Positions 21,101 through 60,830 of a stretch of DNA of 64,000 bases are shown in pieces. The DNA comes from a phage: the NCBI GenBank assembly GCA_028909515.1, contig GCA_028909515.1_4811.1; one strand, 5' to 3'. The notes under the pieces are model-generated. The model saw only the letters and a list, made by a program, of their open reading frames with translations. It had not been told where the DNA came from and did not search any database. Made by a program: the position numbers and the translations under genes. The first letter of the stretch is position 1. Every line of letters starts with the position of its first letter.

Positions 21101-21442
21101 ATGAACAACACTTTATCACAACTGTTAATCTGGACTATCGCCGCTATCATCGGCACCGTTATTATGATGTCAAGTGCAAAGGCTGAAACGGATATTTGCG
21201 GCAGACTGATTTCTGAAAACGGCGAAATTTATTATGGCAACTCAAAAGGTGATTACATATCACCTGAAGTTTGCGCTCAGAAGAAAGCAGAGCTGCAAAA
21301 GCAGTATCATGAAGATCAATCTATATCTCAAGCCACGCTGATTGAATTAAGTATATCAGCCATCATCTTTCTAATCGTTTTTATGCTCATTATTAAACCA
21401 AATAATGGCAGCCATCGTCATATTCCTCTCAAAAGAAATTAA
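21101..21442 (+). CDS. membrane protein with N- and C-terminal hydrophobic segments
   Basis: 113 aa; N-terminal signal/TM 'LLIWTIAAIIGTVIMM' and C-terminal TM 'AIIFLIVFMLII'. Confidence 0.5.
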   Translation: MNNTLSQLLIWTIAAIIGTVIMMSSAKAETDICGRLISENGEIYYGNSKGDYISPEVCAQKKAELQKQYHEDQSISQATLIELSISAIIFLIVFMLIIKPNNGSHRHIPLKRN

Positions 21443-55314: not shown

Positions 55315-55578
55315 ATGGTACGCATCCTTGAACGTTACAAAAATGAAGCTACTGGTGCAATCGCTTTCAAACGTCTTTTGGTCAAAGAAATTGACGGGAT
55401 GTTCCGCGTTGTTAAAGAGTTTGATTATGGCAACGGTGCTGGGGTGAATACCGTTATTATGCCTGGCATCAAGGCATATAAAACATTGAAAGGCGCTGAG
55501 AAGGCTTTGGCGGCTTGGAAACCTGAACGTTATCAAATGACCCGTGTTGAAGGGCTAATGCAAGAAGGTAAAATATGA
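55315..55578 (+). CDS. hypothetical protein
   Basis: 87-aa ORF behind promoter TTGACT-N17-CATAAT. Confidence 0.5.
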   Translation: MVRILERYKNEATGAIAFKRLLVKEIDGMFRVVKEFDYGNGAGVNTVIMPGIKAYKTLKGAEKALAAWKPERYQMTRVEGLMQEGKI

Positions 55579-56132
55579 GCAATATTAATTGGGAAGATGA
55601 TTTGCCGCAGGTCGCTCCTGAGAGCATTCAAGAGCGCCTTGCGCGCTTAGTATCTGAACTGGCAGAACGCCAAGAAGCTTTGACAGAGCTTGAAGATGAA
55701 GCTGATATGCAAAAGCAGCGAATCAGTGAAATCAAAACTGTTCTGCTTCCTGGCGTTATGGATGAGCTTGGCGTGTCCGAAATCAAGCTTGAGGACAAGA
55801 CCAAAATCAAGGTCGAGTCCAAGGTGAACGCTTCAATCAAGAAAGAAAACGAATTAAAAGTTTTCGATTGGCTTGTCAACAACGGTTACGGCGGCTTGAT
55901 CAAGTCCAGCGTCACGGCTGAGTTCGGTCGCGAAGAAATCGAACAGGCGCAAGAGATTGTTGCCGCGCTGCGTGAAGATGGTGTTGAAGCCACGTTGAAA
56001 CAAGGCGTTCATTCTGCTACACTGAAGTCGTTTGTAAAAGAACAGCTGGAAGCGGGCAATCCAGTTAGTGAAGATATTAGCGTTTTTGAATACAAAGAAG
56101 CTAAAATAACCTTGCCTAAAAGCAAAAAGTAA
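55575..56132 (+). CDS. coiled-coil protein, possibly Gam/Gp157-like DNA-end-binding (tentative)
   Basis: 185 aa; acidic N-terminal coiled coil then mixed alpha/beta region; immediately precedes SSB-like gene. Confidence 0.3.
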   Translation: MSNINWEDDLPQVAPESIQERLARLVSELAERQEALTELEDEADMQKQRISEIKTVLLPGVMDELGVSEIKLEDKTKIKVESKVNASIKKENELKVFDWLVNNGYGGLIKSSVTAEFGREEIEQAQEIVAALREDGVEATLKQGVHSATLKSFVKEQLEAGNPVSEDISVFEYKEAKITLPKSKK

Positions 56133-57052: not shown

Positions 57053-57070
57053 TCGACAATCAAATCAACA

Positions 57071-57098
57071 AGGCTGCCGTTTGGCGGCCTTTTATTTA
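57071..57098 (+). terminator. rho-independent terminator after SSB-like gene
   Basis: AGGCTGCC-gttt-GGCGGCCT followed by TTTATTTAT. Confidence 0.55.
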
Positions 57099-57109
57099 TC
57101 TGGTGCATC

Positions 57110-57625
57110 ATGATAGAAAGAATTGTACCGCTCCTGAAGATTCTGGCCCTTGTTGGCGCGTTTGCCGCTGGATCATACGTTGAAGACCTGCAGCAAACCA
57201 ACGCATCACTGGCCAAGGATAATCAATATCTGACATCGCTTAATGAGCGTAAGGACAAGATAAATGCACTCGAAGAGCAAATTGCAACTTTACAGGTTGA
57301 ATCGGCATCGGCATATGAGAAGGGTCGCCAGGAAGCGCAACTGGTTGCTGATGACACTATTGCTCGTTACAAGTCTGGGAATGTCAAGTTGCGCGAGCAA
57401 CTCAGCTGCTCCCGTGAGTTACTCAGGAGTGTGCCCGACTCTGCGACCACTGGACGCCTCTCTATCCCAGAAGGAAACTGTGGACTATCAGAAGAGGATG
57501 TCAGATTTCTTGTTCAGTTCGCCGCAGAAACAAATCGATTAAAAGAGAAAGTTAATAGCTTGATTGATACTTATAATCAGGCTAAAATAAAAATCGATCA
57601 ATTCAATGCATCAAAGGAAAAATAA
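57110..57625 (+). CDS. i-spanin-like (Rz-type) protein
   Basis: N-terminal TM 'IVPLLKILALVGAFAAGSYV' then long coiled-coil region; contains an embedded +1-frame lipoprotein-like ORF. Confidence 0.45.
   Translation: MIERIVPLLKILALVGAFAAGSYVEDLQQTNASLAKDNQYLTSLNERKDKINALEEQIATLQVESASAYEKGRQEAQLVADDTIARYKSGNVKLREQLSCSRELLRSVPDSATTGRLSIPEGNCGLSEEDVRFLVQFAAETNRLKEKVNSLIDTYNQAKIKIDQFNASKEK
57315..57542 (+). CDS. embedded o-spanin-like lipoprotein (Rz1-type, tentative)
   Basis: +1 frame inside 57110..57625: basic n-region 'MRRVARKR', hydrophobic core, lipobox-like 'LGMSSC', Pro-rich mature part with a second Cys. Confidence 0.35.
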   Translation: MRRVARKRNWLLMTLLLVTSLGMSSCASNSAAPVSYSGVCPTLRPLDASLSQKETVDYQKRMSDFLFSSPQKQID

Positions 57626-58249
57626 ATGAAACAGATTTATGCAAACATTCGCCAGTGGGCTTCTGACCGTAACATCATCCAAGGTTGCGACCTTAAGGAC
57701 CAATACCCGAAGCTTATCAGCGAGTTTGGGGAGTTAACCGACCACGTTGATCAACTCCATGACCTTGTGTTCTTCGACCCTGAAATTGGATATACAGAGC
57801 AGGCCATCTGTGACTTGCAAGCTGCAATCAAGGACGACATTGGCGATTGTCTTGTTGTGTTGACCATCCTGGCGGCGCAAAACGGTACTGAAATCGAAAA
57901 CATTAATGGCGGCGGTTGTGCTGATAAAGGCGCTCACCCTCATTCATTCATCCTTCGCCTGGCAAAGACCCTTGGACGGCTTGGTGATGCTATTGCTAAG
58001 AATCAGACCATGGATATTGACGTCACCATCATGGCCGCAGTCGATTACCTTTCCGGCGTAGCTCATGATTATGGCCTTCGCTTATCCGACTGTGCGCAAG
58101 CGGCCTACGAAGACATCAAGGACCGCAAAGGTGTCATGTACAACGGAACGTTCATCAAATCTACTGATCCAGCTTATGAGCACTCCTGCAAAATGGTAAA
58201 GAAGCTGGAACTTGAAGACCGTGTGATCAGAGAAGTTACAGGACAATAA
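57626..58249 (+). CDS. MazG-like nucleoside triphosphate pyrophosphohydrolase
   Basis: 'LISEFGELTDHV' and 'DDIGDCLVVLTILA' fit the MazG E-x-x-E / D-x-x-G-D metal-binding pattern. Confidence 0.55.
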   Translation: MKQIYANIRQWASDRNIIQGCDLKDQYPKLISEFGELTDHVDQLHDLVFFDPEIGYTEQAICDLQAAIKDDIGDCLVVLTILAAQNGTEIENINGGGCADKGAHPHSFILRLAKTLGRLGDAIAKNQTMDIDVTIMAAVDYLSGVAHDYGLRLSDCAQAAYEDIKDRKGVMYNGTFIKSTDPAYEHSCKMVKKLELEDRVIREVTGQ

Positions 58250-59390: not shown

Positions 59391-59933
59391 ATGAAATCGA
59401 AAAATTTAAAGATTGTTTTGATCATCATCATGGCTATGCTGACAGTTTTGTTCTTCACCAAAAGTGCTTCGGCTGAAAGTATGTTTACGCCGCCAAACAG
59501 TAATGCAAAAGTGTTAACTCGATATTTTAACAACGGCCAATCGTTCGAATTTTGCTGGAACAAATACGATGTGATAAAGGAAAGGTTTGACAAGGAAAAG
59601 ATGTGCGTAATGAATGATCGCGGTCGCCAAGTCGTGTCGTTTGTGTTCGGAATGTCAATTGCAAAAGTTGATGCCCCTGAAATCGTTGTCAGGTATAATA
59701 CATTGGACAGCGGCCTTGTCGACAAGACATACCCTGTTGCAGTAGACAGCAGGACAGGCGGCGCACTCATACTTACTCCAGAAGATAAATCGGATGTCGT
59801 TAACATGCTCATCAACAGCAAAGACGTAATCGTGTTTTATCATGTTGAAGGCGTATCAGACTACCAAATGGCCTACTATCCACTGCCCTTAAGAGATGCT
59901 TCAGGTAATGTTAAGACACAGGATGTGCGTTGA
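59391..59933 (+). CDS. secreted/periplasmic protein
   Basis: Signal peptide 'MKSKNLKIVLIIIMAMLTVLFFTKSASA'; promoter TTTACT-N16-TATACT upstream. Confidence 0.5.
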   Translation: MKSKNLKIVLIIIMAMLTVLFFTKSASAESMFTPPNSNAKVLTRYFNNGQSFEFCWNKYDVIKERFDKEKMCVMNDRGRQVVSFVFGMSIAKVDAPEIVVRYNTLDSGLVDKTYPVAVDSRTGGALILTPEDKSDVVNMLINSKDVIVFYHVEGVSDYQMAYYPLPLRDASGNVKTQDVR

Positions 59934-60160
59934 CATGGGTGGTAGTTATGCAGAAAGATTTGGAAGAAAACAAAAGGCTGAAAAAGGCTTTGACGTCTCA
60001 AATCTTGTCCCTGTTGGTAAAGCTTATTGGGGAGTCAATCAGCAACAAGGTGGCACGGGCCGCGATTGTTGGCGTGATTGGCATGGCGGGGTATTACTTC
60101 GACTTGCCAGACATTGATACAAGTTCCGCGCCGCCCGTCCAGGTTGAAGCCGTAAAATAA
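59930..60160 (+). CDS. small membrane protein (holin-like candidate)
   Basis: 76 aa with one hydrophobic segment 'AAIVGVIGMAGYYF'; convergent with endolysin across a bidirectional terminator. Confidence 0.4.
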   Translation: MTWVVVMQKDLEENKRLKKALTSQILSLLVKLIGESISNKVARAAIVGVIGMAGYYFDLPDIDTSSAPPVQVEAVK

Positions 60161-60185: not shown

Positions 60186-60830
60186 TTACATAACTGCTAG
60201 TGCATCCTTGTAACGCTTCCTTCGCAAATCCCCATGGTTAGCCGTATTCGGCGCGGCCCCGTTAATCCGCTTAACGGTTGAATCAAAATTTCCTGCATCA
60301 GCAAGAGGAATACAGCCGCTATTCTTAAAGAACCATGCCGCGCTGTCAGCGATGTATTTTGGTTCAGTCAGAATATCAGGATTGTTCAATGCGTCATAGC
60401 CTGATTGACGTGTATATTCCGCATAGTTCGCTTTGCCAGTCAGCTGAATGGCACCACGGCCACGGTACTTCCAACCGTCGCCCGATGCTACCGAACCGTT
60501 GCCCATGCGGTTTGCATATGTATTATTGGCGATTTCCATTGGTTTACGGGCAATCGACAATGCCAAGGAGTTGGGTGCACCGCCGAAACGACCGCTGGCG
60601 CTGTAACGGCTAGGCCATGTATTAGCAAGACCTTGAGCGGAATAATTCAAGTTTTCCACAAATGTCTTCAGGCTGCCTGTTTCCACTCCTACGTTTGCAA
60701 GCAACGCCGCGATGGCATTCTTGCTTTTGATTCCGTAGTGCTCACAAGCCTGCTTGAAAGGGTCCACCCATTTCTCTGCAACATCCATGCTGCATCCGGT
60801 CCCTTTAGATATTACGTTTGCATTAATCAT
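60186..60830 (-). CDS. endolysin, glycoside hydrolase family 19-like
   Basis: 'ANVGVETGSLKTFVENLNYS' and 'GDGWKYRGRGAIQLTGKANY' match GH19 catalytic-region patterns. Confidence 0.7.
   Translation of the reverse strand: MINANVISKGTGCSMDVAEKWVDPFKQACEHYGIKSKNAIAALLANVGVETGSLKTFVENLNYSAQGLANTWPSRYSASGRFGGAPNSLALSIARKPMEIANNTYANRMGNGSVASGDGWKYRGRGAIQLTGKANYAEYTRQSGYDALNNPDILTEPKYIADSAAWFFKNSGCIPLADAGNFDSTVKRINGAAPNTANHGDLRRKRYKDALAVM

What the first reader, a model, noticed from the sequence alone, without database searches (positions are those of the whole stretch)
57110..57625. Spanin-like pair with embedded +1-frame lipoprotein ORF, located among replication genes
57110..57625 has an N-terminal TM and a long periplasmic coiled-coil (Rz-like). 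A +1-frame ORF nested inside it (start about 57315) encodes a basic n-region, hydrophobic core, lipobox-like LGMSSC and a Pro-rich mature peptide with a second Cys (Rz1-like). The embedded architecture is typical of spanins, but the location, about 2.5 kb from the endolysin and on the opposite strand, is atypical and the lipobox is non-canonical.
Basis: partly seen in the sequence, partly recalled or inferred. Interest (0 to 1): 0.4.

Follow-up and report, generated by a model that had tools for sequence, protein, structure and literature searches.

The report
Embedded Rz/Rz1 spanin pair, already annotated
This is an ordinary lambda-style pair of phage lysis genes, one nested inside the other, that breaks the host outer membrane; it is already catalogued for this phage genus, so it is real but not new.

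Summary
ORF 57110..57625 (171 aa) has an N-terminal membrane helix followed by long helices. A +1-frame ORF lies wholly inside it (57264..57542, 92 aa; an internal ATG at 57315 gives 75 aa). That ORF encodes a lipoprotein signal (LGMSS|C) and a 50-aa mature peptide with one further Cys.

The window is a Wifcevirus myophage, 99.4% identical to Escherichia phage vB_EcoM_WFC. The pair is already known. SpaninDB (Kongari 2018) lists the ECML-117 orthologues as embedded i-/o-spanin. GenBank records of phage Mansfield and BASEL phages Bas98-101 annotate both genes.

Independent support:
- The nested frame is open, with both ATGs and both Cys, in 18 distinct genus sequences.
- Rz-synonymous variation is three-fold depleted in the overlap (p=0.003).
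- Distant homologues in PY54, Mica and LIET2 carry a homologous embedded lipoprotein (41-45% identity). In PY54 and Mica it sits in a holin-endolysin-Rz/Rz1 cassette.
- The o-spanin profile matches lambda Rz1 (hhalign 93.5%).

The "non-canonical" lipobox MSSC is a one-base variant of the canonical ISSC found in most of the genus. A spanin placed away from the endolysin has a precedent in T4. The mature peptide is Ser-rich rather than Pro-rich. Function was not tested experimentally.

The parts
57070..57101 (+). Intrinsic-terminator-like hairpin (AAGGCTGCCGTTTGGCGGCCTT) plus T-run, lying between the Pam3-gp34-like gene and the i-spanin start
   Evidence: Consensus scan: 9-pair stem with 6 GC pairs. 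The equivalent site is annotated as a terminator in phage Mansfield. No sigma-70-like site lies between it and the ATG at 57110.
57110..57625 (+). i-spanin (Rz-like), 171 aa: N-terminal transmembrane domain, helix 1, Cys-containing linker (C100, C124), helix 2
   Evidence: ORF. PHROG phrog_1327 'Rz-like spanin', E=1.9e-26 over residues 6-160. tblastn hits to the PY54, Mica, LIET2 and P744 i-spanins, E=6e-13 to 9e-7. Orthologues annotated as i-spanin or Rz-like spanin. AlphaFold2 secondary structure.
57122..57178 (+). Transmembrane segment of the i-spanin (residues 5-23)
   Evidence: Kyte-Doolittle maximum of 1.8 over a 19-mer; the only hydrophobic segment in the protein. SpaninDB assigns the first 24 residues of the ECML-117 orthologue to the N-terminus plus transmembrane domain.
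57251..57255 (+). Shine-Dalgarno AAGGA, 8 nt upstream of the nested ATG at 57264
   Evidence: Duplex with the anti-SD is -5.8 kcal/mol; only 9.3% of all + strand ATGs in the window reach -5.0 or lower. The ATG at 57315 scores -2.2. A ribosome-binding site is annotated at the equivalent place in Mansfield.
57264..57542 (+). o-spanin (Rz1-like) ORF, +1 frame, wholly embedded. It gives 92 aa from ATG 57264 or 75 aa from ATG 57315. The mature lipoprotein is 50 aa and starts at Cys43.
   Evidence: ORF. Open, with both ATGs and both Cys, in 18 distinct genus sequences. 41-45% identical to the embedded o-spanins of LIET2, PY54 and Mica. The family profile matches lambda Rz1 at 93.5% probability, E=2.3e-7. 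Annotated as o-spanin in Mansfield and Bas98-101. The SpaninDB embedded o-spanin (EOS) entry for ECML-117 matches it.
57375..57392 (+). Lipobox region L-G-M-S-S-C. Cys at 57390..57392 is the predicted acylation and LspA cleavage site; the +2 residue is Ala.
   Evidence: Read directly from the sequence. Fits a relaxed lipobox pattern of my own, [ILMFTV][^REKD][GAS]C, but not the strict [LVI][ASTVI][GAS]C. The ECML-117 orthologue is listed with lipobox GISS|C.
60186..60830 (-). Soluble GH19-type endolysin, the partner that must act before the spanin. It is the last gene of the converging tail-fibre operon.
   Evidence: Pfam Glyco_hydro_19, 31.3 bits against a cut-off of 25.5. PHROG phrog_181 endolysin, 5.3e-69. 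No hydrophobic stretch is evident in the N-terminal region of the translation, read by eye.

Best explanation
The locus is a two-component spanin of the embedded (lambda Rz/Rz1) architecture, belonging to a Wifcevirus coliphage.

Shown by sequence and homology:
- The 171-aa product is a type II inner-membrane protein: an N-terminal transmembrane domain and a helix-linker-helix periplasmic domain with two Cys.
- The +1-frame product is a small lipoprotein precursor.

Inferred from established spanin and lipoprotein biology:
1. The precursor is exported by Sec, acylated at Cys43 and cleaved by signal peptidase II.
2. Because residue +2 is Ala and not Asp, Lol sorts it to the outer membrane.
3. 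Its 50-aa periplasmic tail binds the C-terminal helix of the i-spanin, and each subunit forms disulfide-linked homodimers. The complex therefore spans the periplasm, threaded through the peptidoglycan.
4. A still unidentified holin releases the soluble GH19 endolysin. Once the peptidoglycan is degraded, the complexes are free to collapse and fuse the inner and outer membranes, which completes lysis.

Also inferred: the pair is transcribed with the replication-gene block (Pam3 gp33/gp34-like genes, MazG, ligase) by read-through of the terminator at 57070-57101, not with the endolysin.
For: Identity of the window: 99.4% identical to vB_EcoM_WFC, and 29 Wifcevirus records cover the region.

Prior annotation of orthologues:
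- Mansfield i-spanin and o-spanin.
- Bas98-101 Rz-like spanin and o-spanin.
- SpaninDB embedded i-spanin (EIS, 172 aa) and embedded o-spanin (EOS, 75 aa) entries for ECML-117.

Family matches:
- phrog_1327 Rz-like spanin, 1.9e-26.
- Three of the four aligned i-spanin homologues hit Pfam PF03245 Phage_lysis, best E=6.1e-17.
- The PY54 and Mica homologues sit directly after a holin and an endolysin.

Nested frame:
- Homologous embedded lipoproteins with ISGC or MSGC lipoboxes and the shared motif CP..P.D..L....ET.D[YF]Q..MS.FLF occur in LIET2, PY54 and Mica.
- hhalign of the o-spanin profile against lambda Rz1 gives 93.5% probability, E=2.3e-7.
- The frame is open, with both ATGs and both Cys invariant, in 18 distinct sequences.
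- Rz third-codon positions vary at 8 of 93 sites inside the overlap and 20 of 77 outside (Fisher p=0.003).
- A chance lipoprotein-signal ORF arose in 0.4% of recodings.

Other features: topology and helices; Shine-Dalgarno sequence before 57264; soluble endolysin.
Against: - There is no experimental evidence for translation, lipidation or lysis function in any Wifcevirus. The papers on Mansfield and vB_Eco4M-7 do not mention lysis genes.
- The window i-spanin itself gets no Pfam hit at E<=1, and its profile matches lambda Rz only weakly (hhalign 25.8%).
- The o-spanin's direct PHROG hits are marginal (E=0.004-0.03).
- Lipobox position -3 is Met in this phage, outside the classical consensus.
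- The gene is not next to the endolysin, and no holin was identified in the window.
- An alternative-frame ORF of this length alone is not rare (6.7%).
Confidence: 0.9

Rival explanations
1. The nested +1 ORF is a by-product of the Rz coding sequence and is not translated. The 171-aa membrane protein acts alone or with an unlinked partner.
For: Synonymous recoding shows that the Rz amino-acid sequence tolerates long alternative-frame ORFs fairly often: at least 75 aa in 15% of recodings and at least 92 aa in 6.7%. Direct family hits of the nested peptide are weak. The ATG at 57315 has a poor Shine-Dalgarno sequence.
Against: A lipoprotein signal arises in only 0.4% of recodings. Four lineages whose i-spanins are only 25-30% identical keep a homologous embedded lipoprotein at 41-45% identity, with the Cys, lipobox and C-terminal motif conserved. 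Rz-synonymous variation is depleted in the overlap. The profile matches lambda Rz1. A strong Shine-Dalgarno sequence precedes 57264.
Confidence: 0.03
2. The pair is a spanin by descent, but in this phage and its closest relatives the I>M change at lipobox position -3 impairs lipidation. Outer-membrane disruption would then be weak or depend on other factors.
For: MSSC fails the strict [LVI][ASTVI][GAS]C pattern. Only three of the 19 loci read (window, WFC, Bas99) carry M there. Spanin defects are masked in shaken cultures, so laboratory propagation would not select against the change (Kongari 2018 background).
Against: The M variant is present in several independently isolated phages. Six records have an identical i-spanin protein and so carry V92; since Rz1 is Met whenever Rz codon 92 begins with G, all six must encode Met at that position. 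Bas99 carries it too. The rest of the signal and the mature peptide show no decay. The Mica o-spanin has M at -3. Kongari 2018 verified experimentally a far more deviant lipobox, AWAC.
Confidence: 0.06
3. Given its neighbours, the 171-aa protein is a membrane-anchored replication or superinfection-exclusion factor and not a lysis protein.
For: It lies between Pam3 gp34-like, MazG and ligase genes on the replication strand, downstream of a terminator, with no holin or endolysin adjacent.
Against: Its homologues lie in canonical lysis cassettes. It matches Rz PHROGs, and its homologues match Pfam Phage_lysis. It keeps an embedded Rz1-like gene. T4 shows that spanin genes can sit apart from the holin and endolysin genes.
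Confidence: 0.01

Closest known systems
Escherichia phage ECML-117 embedded spanin (SpaninDB entries ECML-117_EIS and ECML-117_EOS; Kongari et al. 2018, PMC6139136), and the i-spanin/o-spanin of phage Mansfield (CPT_Mansfield_057 and _058)
   Same: These are orthologues. The i-spanin is 98.8% identical. Gene order, embedding, frame, both Cys and the mature peptide are the same.
   Different: Three small differences:
- The window has lipobox MSSC instead of ISSC, from one A>G change at 57383.
- Its Rz ends ...SKEK instead of ...SKENK.
- SpaninDB starts the o-spanin at the second ATG (75 aa), while GenBank annotators start it at the first (92 aa).
Lambda Rz/Rz1 (embedded two-component spanin prototype)
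   Same: - The o-spanin is wholly embedded in the +1 frame.
- The i-spanin has a transmembrane domain followed by helix, linker and helix, with Cys at about residue 100.
- The o-spanin is a short lipoprotein with one extra Cys and a shared ...MQP.P.DWQ-like motif.
- The embedded gene occupies about 0.3/0.4 to 0.84 of the i-spanin length.
   Different: - The i-spanin similarity to lambda Rz is weak (14% identity; hhalign 25.8%).
- The mature o-spanin is Ser-rich with 4 Pro, not 10.
- The second i-spanin Cys lies in the linker (C124), not at the C-terminus.
- The pair is not in a holin-endolysin cassette.
Yersinia phage PY54 ORF63, Burkholderia phage Mica gp68/gp69, and Pantoea phage LIET2 gp065 (Rz-like spanins with embedded o-spanins)
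   Same: - The i-spanins are homologous (25-30% identity; tblastn E=6e-13 to 9e-7).
- The embedded +1 o-spanins are homologous (41-45% identity).
- The conserved GN.RLRE.F.C and D.DV.FLV motifs of Rz lie over the lipobox and the MS.FLF motifs of Rz1.
   Different: In PY54 and Mica the pair directly follows the holin and endolysin. Those three i-spanins score on Pfam PF03245, but the window protein does not. SpaninDB lists ECML-117 and PY54 as separate 'singleton' families.
T4 pseT.3/pseT.2 spanins
   Same: The spanin genes are located away from the holin and endolysin genes (Kongari 2018, Fig. 8 legend).
   Different: The T4 pair has the separated architecture, not the embedded one, and no sequence similarity to the window pair was found or tested.

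Membership tests
Two-component spanin, embedded architecture (functional class of Summer 2007 and Kongari 2018) | The i-spanin is a type II inner-membrane protein with a single N-terminal transmembrane domain and a largely helical periplasmic domain | tested here: met
   One hydrophobic segment at residues 5-23. AlphaFold2 helices 5-88, 94-114 and 128-170. SpaninDB records one coiled-coil prediction for the ECML-117 orthologue.
Two-component spanin, embedded architecture | The o-spanin is a small protein with a signal peptidase II signal: basic n-region, hydrophobic core, lipobox, Cys | tested here: met
   The signal reads MRRVARKRN-WLLMTLLLVTSLG-MSS-C. It passes my relaxed lipobox pattern but not the strict consensus. 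16 of the 19 genus loci read have the canonical ISSC. No dedicated predictor such as LipoP or SignalP was available.
Two-component spanin, embedded architecture | The o-spanin gene lies entirely within the i-spanin gene in another frame | tested here: met
   57264..57542 lies inside 57110..57625, in the +1 frame. Its relative position is 0.30 or 0.40 to 0.84 of the i-spanin length.
Two-component spanin, embedded architecture | The o-spanin carries an outer-membrane sorting signal (no Asp at +2) | tested here: met
   The mature N-terminus is C-A-S. The +2 rule itself comes from established Lol-pathway knowledge.
Two-component spanin, embedded architecture | At least one periplasmic Cys for intermolecular disulfides (507 of 528 systems have one) | tested here: met
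   The i-spanin has C100 and C124 and the o-spanin has C57, all invariant in the genus. The rule is taken from Kongari 2018.
Two-component spanin, embedded architecture | Required for outer-membrane disruption; complements lambda Rzam Rz1am | not testable with these tools
   No experiment on any Wifcevirus spanin was found.
Two-component spanin, embedded architecture | Adjacent to holin and endolysin genes (usual, but not defining) | tested here: not met
   The endolysin is 2,560 nt away on the opposite strand, and the neighbours are replication genes. T4 is a precedent.
Pfam PF03245 Phage_lysis (Rz) | Scores above the gathering threshold on the family HMM | tested here: not met
   The window protein gets no hit at E<=1. 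Three of the four aligned homologues do hit, with best E=6.1e-17, and the window protein matches PY54 at 6e-13. Membership is therefore only transitive.
PHROG phrog_1327 (Rz-like spanin) | Significant, near full-length match to the profile | tested here: met
   E=1.9e-26; residues 6-160 match profile positions 9-156 of 158.
Lambda Rz1-like o-spanins | Detectable sequence homology to lambda Rz1 | tested here: inconclusive
   The protein gets no Pfam or NCBIfam hit. A four-sequence family profile against lambda Rz1 gives hhalign probability 93.5% and E=2.3e-7 over 54 columns, but part of that alignment is signal peptide.

The most novel reading that the evidence does not exclude
The most novel reading still open concerns where the pair sits. 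The spanin pair may be expressed with the middle (replication) genes by read-through of the terminator at 57070-57101. The envelope would then be loaded with spanin complexes long before the endolysin is made.

On this reading, the slot between the Pam3 gp34-like gene and MazG is a conserved envelope or lysis slot in the PB1-like lineage. Wifcevirus fills it with Rz/Rz1. Pbunavirus fills it with an unrelated 201-aa membrane protein that has a Gly-rich N-terminal region, a coiled coil and two C-terminal transmembrane domains (phrog_1544; only a sub-threshold GTA_holin_3TM similarity).

Early spanin expression might relate to the very short latent period reported for Wifcevirus phages, as cited in the BASEL paper.
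Probability: 0.25. Interest if true: 0.3.

Novelty: already known. Interest (0 to 1): 0.08.

Why it matters
It matters little beyond annotation quality. Many Wifcevirus records still call one or both genes 'hypothetical protein': WFC (GenBank), vB_Eco4M-7, FEC19, AV128, EC150 and the RCIP phages. These phages are candidates for biocontrol of E. coli O157, so a complete lysis-gene inventory has some use. The holin is still missing from that inventory.

Two small points add to what is published:
- ECML-117 and PY54 are listed as separate 'singleton' families in SpaninDB, but they are in fact homologous in both reading frames.
- The two curated sources disagree on the o-spanin start codon.

Tried and rejected
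- Pfam and NCBIfam scans of both window proteins gave nothing meaningful.
- hhalign of the i-spanin profile against lambda Rz was weak (25.8% probability).
- An IMG/VR scan returned only four near-identical loci.
- I looked for a second lipoprotein or u-spanin candidate anywhere in the window, using lipobox patterns, a C-terminal transmembrane domain and the AWAC motif. All other hits were in alternative or antisense frames of long genes or lacked a real hydrophobic core, and there was no AWAC.
- I considered 59391..59933 plus 59948..60160, next to the endolysin, as a separated spanin pair. I rejected this. The first has a cleavable Sec signal (ASA|E) and no lipobox. The second has no signal peptide or Cys.
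- I checked whether the Pbunavirus syntenic gene is the PB1-type u-spanin. It is not: it has no Cys and is 201 aa, against about 132 aa for the u-spanin.
- phmmer of that Pbunavirus protein against all window ORFs found no homologue.
- Papers on Mansfield and vB_Eco4M-7 say nothing about lysis genes.
- I did not use the large protein-database searches (search for homologous proteins, the search of protein representatives), because the answer was already settled.

Full report
**What the window is.** The 3.5 kb around the finding is 99.4% identical to Escherichia phage vB_EcoM_WFC. All 29 Wifcevirus records in the phage collection cover it at 93-99% identity. Wifcevirus is a genus of ~66-72 kb PB1-like myophages of E. 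coli and Shigella, distantly related to Pbunavirus (BASEL paper PMC11990801; Mansfield announcement PMC6753283).

**The observation.**
- The large protein has one hydrophobic segment, at residues 5-23.
- A single-sequence AlphaFold2 model puts helices at 5-88, 94-114 and 128-170, with a loop at 115-127. This is the Rz layout of a transmembrane domain, helix 1, a linker and helix 2.
- The nested peptide has a strongly basic n-region, the core WLLMTLLLVTSLG, the lipobox M-S-S-C (Cys43) and a 50-aa mature part with one more Cys (C57).
- 'Pro-rich' is overstated. The mature part has 4 Pro and 9 Ser in 50 residues; lambda Rz1 has 10 Pro in 41.
- The GH19 endolysin is at 60186..60830 on the other strand, 2.56 kb away. 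No hydrophobic stretch is evident at its N-terminus, so it appears to be a soluble endolysin.

**Is it more than chance?**
- Length alone is not persuasive. In 20,000 synonymous recodings of this Rz sequence, an alternative-frame ATG-ORF of at least 92 aa appeared in 6.7%. One with a lipoprotein signal appeared in only 0.4%.
- Among 19 Wifcevirus loci (18 distinct DNA sequences, 50 variable sites) the nested frame is always open. Both ATGs, the lipobox Cys and the second Cys are invariant.
- Every Rz third-codon position is a second-codon position in the nested frame. These positions vary at 8 of 93 sites inside the overlap and 20 of 77 outside (Fisher p=0.003). This is the expected signature of selection on both frames.

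**Distant relatives.** tblastn with the i-spanin finds the following:

| Phage | E-value | Identity |
|---|---|---|
| Yersinia phage PY54 | 6e-13 | 28% |
| Yersinia phage P744 | 1e-8 | 26.5% |
| Burkholderia phage Mica | 9e-7 | 33% |
| Pantoea phages LIET2 and Nafs113 | 6e-12 and 1e-11 | 46.5% over the C-terminal 42% of the query |

- In PY54 and Mica the gene directly follows a holin and an endolysin.
- PY54, Mica and LIET2 each contain an embedded +1-frame lipoprotein with an ISGC or MSGC lipobox. These are 41-45% identical to the window's nested peptide. They share C..(S)..CP..P.D..L....ET.D[YF]Q..MS.FLF.
- The i-spanins themselves are only 25-30% identical.
- Three of the four i-spanins hit Pfam PF03245 (Rz lysis protein), best E=6.1e-17. 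The window protein does not, but it matches PHROG phrog_1327 'Rz-like spanin' at 1.9e-26.
- The four-sequence o-spanin profile aligns to lambda Rz1 at 93.5% probability (E=2.3e-7).
- The i-spanin profile matches lambda Rz only weakly.

**Already known.**
- Kongari et al. 2018 (PMC6139136) list ECML-117 under embedded spanins, as a singleton family.
- Their supplement gives the 172-aa embedded i-spanin (EIS) entry and a 75-aa embedded o-spanin (EOS) entry, MRRVARKRNWLLMTLLLVTSLGISS|CAS... It records 2 and 1 periplasmic Cys.
- Phage Mansfield (Center for Phage Technology) annotates i-spanin and o-spanin at the same position. So do BASEL phages Bas98-101. RefSeq names the large gene 'Rz-like spanin'.

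**The two 'atypical' points.**
- Lipobox. 16 of the 19 genus loci have the canonical ISSC. The window, WFC and Bas99 have MSSC. One A>G change at 57383 makes Rz I92V and Rz1 I>M simultaneously. The other records with an identical i-spanin protein must also carry Met. Mica's o-spanin also has Met at -3. Kongari et al. verified a far more deviant lipobox, AWAC.
- Location. The order polymerase, helicases, Pam3 gp33-like, Pam3 gp34-like, terminator, Rz/Rz1, MazG, ligase, terminator is conserved in the genus. The T4 spanins are likewise not near t and e.
- No sigma-70-like promoter lies between the terminator (57070-57101) and the ATG at 57110. Transcription is therefore probably by read-through from the replication block. 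This is an inference.

**Start codon.**
GenBank annotators use 57264.
- The ATG at 57264 has UAAGGA 8 nt upstream (-5.8 kcal/mol). The ATG at 57315 scores -2.2.
- None of the 17 Rz third-codon positions between the two ATGs varies.
- On the other hand, the n-regions of PY54, Mica and LIET2 align with the short form.
- Either start gives the same mature lipoprotein after signal peptidase II cleavage.

**Mechanism.** By analogy with lambda Rz/Rz1, and not tested here:
1. The i-spanin sits in the inner membrane and the lipidated o-spanin in the outer membrane (residue +2 is Ala).
2. The two bind C-terminus to C-terminus and form disulfide-linked dimers.
3. Holin action and endolysin digestion of the peptidoglycan free the complexes.
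4. The complexes then fuse the two membranes.

**Verdict.** Interest is low.

Noticed in passing
L022 5792-6397 (Pseudomonas phage vB_PaeM_C1-14_Ab28 gp66), syntenic with window 57110-57625: In the sister genus Pbunavirus, the slot between the Pam3 gp34-like gene and MazG holds an unrelated 201-aa protein. It has a Gly-rich hydrophobic N-terminal region, a coiled coil and two C-terminal transmembrane domains, and no Cys. It belongs to phrog_1544 (unknown function) and has only a sub-threshold Pfam GTA_holin_3TM hit (E=0.018). It may be a membrane or lysis protein occupying the same slot as the spanin.
   Followed up: partly
window 59948-60160 (+): A 70-aa ORF lies just before the converging endolysin. 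It is homologous to Pbunavirus gp63 (phrog_5165, E=1.9e-8), which lies next to the endolysin there too. It has a moderately hydrophobic AAIVGVIGMAGYYF stretch. Its function is unknown, and its conserved linkage to the endolysin is unexplained.
   Followed up: partly
window 59391-59933 (+): A 180-aa ORF with a strong Shine-Dalgarno sequence (-7.2 kcal/mol) and what looks like a cleavable Sec signal peptide (…FFTKSASA|ESMF). It has no Pfam or PHROG match. It is probably a secreted or periplasmic phage protein of unknown role.
   Followed up: partly
window 21101-21442 (+): A 113-aa ORF with an N-terminal signal-like hydrophobic segment and a very hydrophobic C-terminal transmembrane domain (Kyte-Doolittle 2.9). 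It has no family match, and its orthologue Bas99_0110 is annotated as hypothetical. It is a possible candidate for the holin, which is not identified in any Wifcevirus annotation seen here.
   Followed up: partly
window 55575-56132 (+); L022 4130-4750: The Pam3 gp33-like protein (Pfam DUF7307, 2.6e-37) has no evident signal peptide, hydrophobic segment or lipobox-like Cys. Going by gene order and length (621 nt), its Pbunavirus homologue appears to be the gene called 'U-spanin' in phage JJ01 (PMC9583000), via PHASTER and phage E215. That label looks like an annotation error. The PB1-type u-spanin of SpaninDB is about 132 aa.
   Followed up: partly
window 57383; 57611-57628: Two small differences from most of the genus. 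First, an A>G change at 57383 alters both overlapping proteins. Second, there appears to be an extra A in the A-run at the Rz 3' end. As a result Rz ends SKEK-TAA and abuts the MazG ATG, instead of ending SKENK with a 4-nt ATGA overlap.
   Followed up: yes
SpaninDB (PMC6139136) against window 57110-57625 and L009 2971-3492: ECML-117 and PY54 are listed as separate singleton families for both subunits. They are nevertheless homologous: the i-spanins match at tblastn E=6e-13 and the o-spanins are 43% identical. Together with Mica and LIET2 they form one embedded-spanin family.
   Followed up: yes
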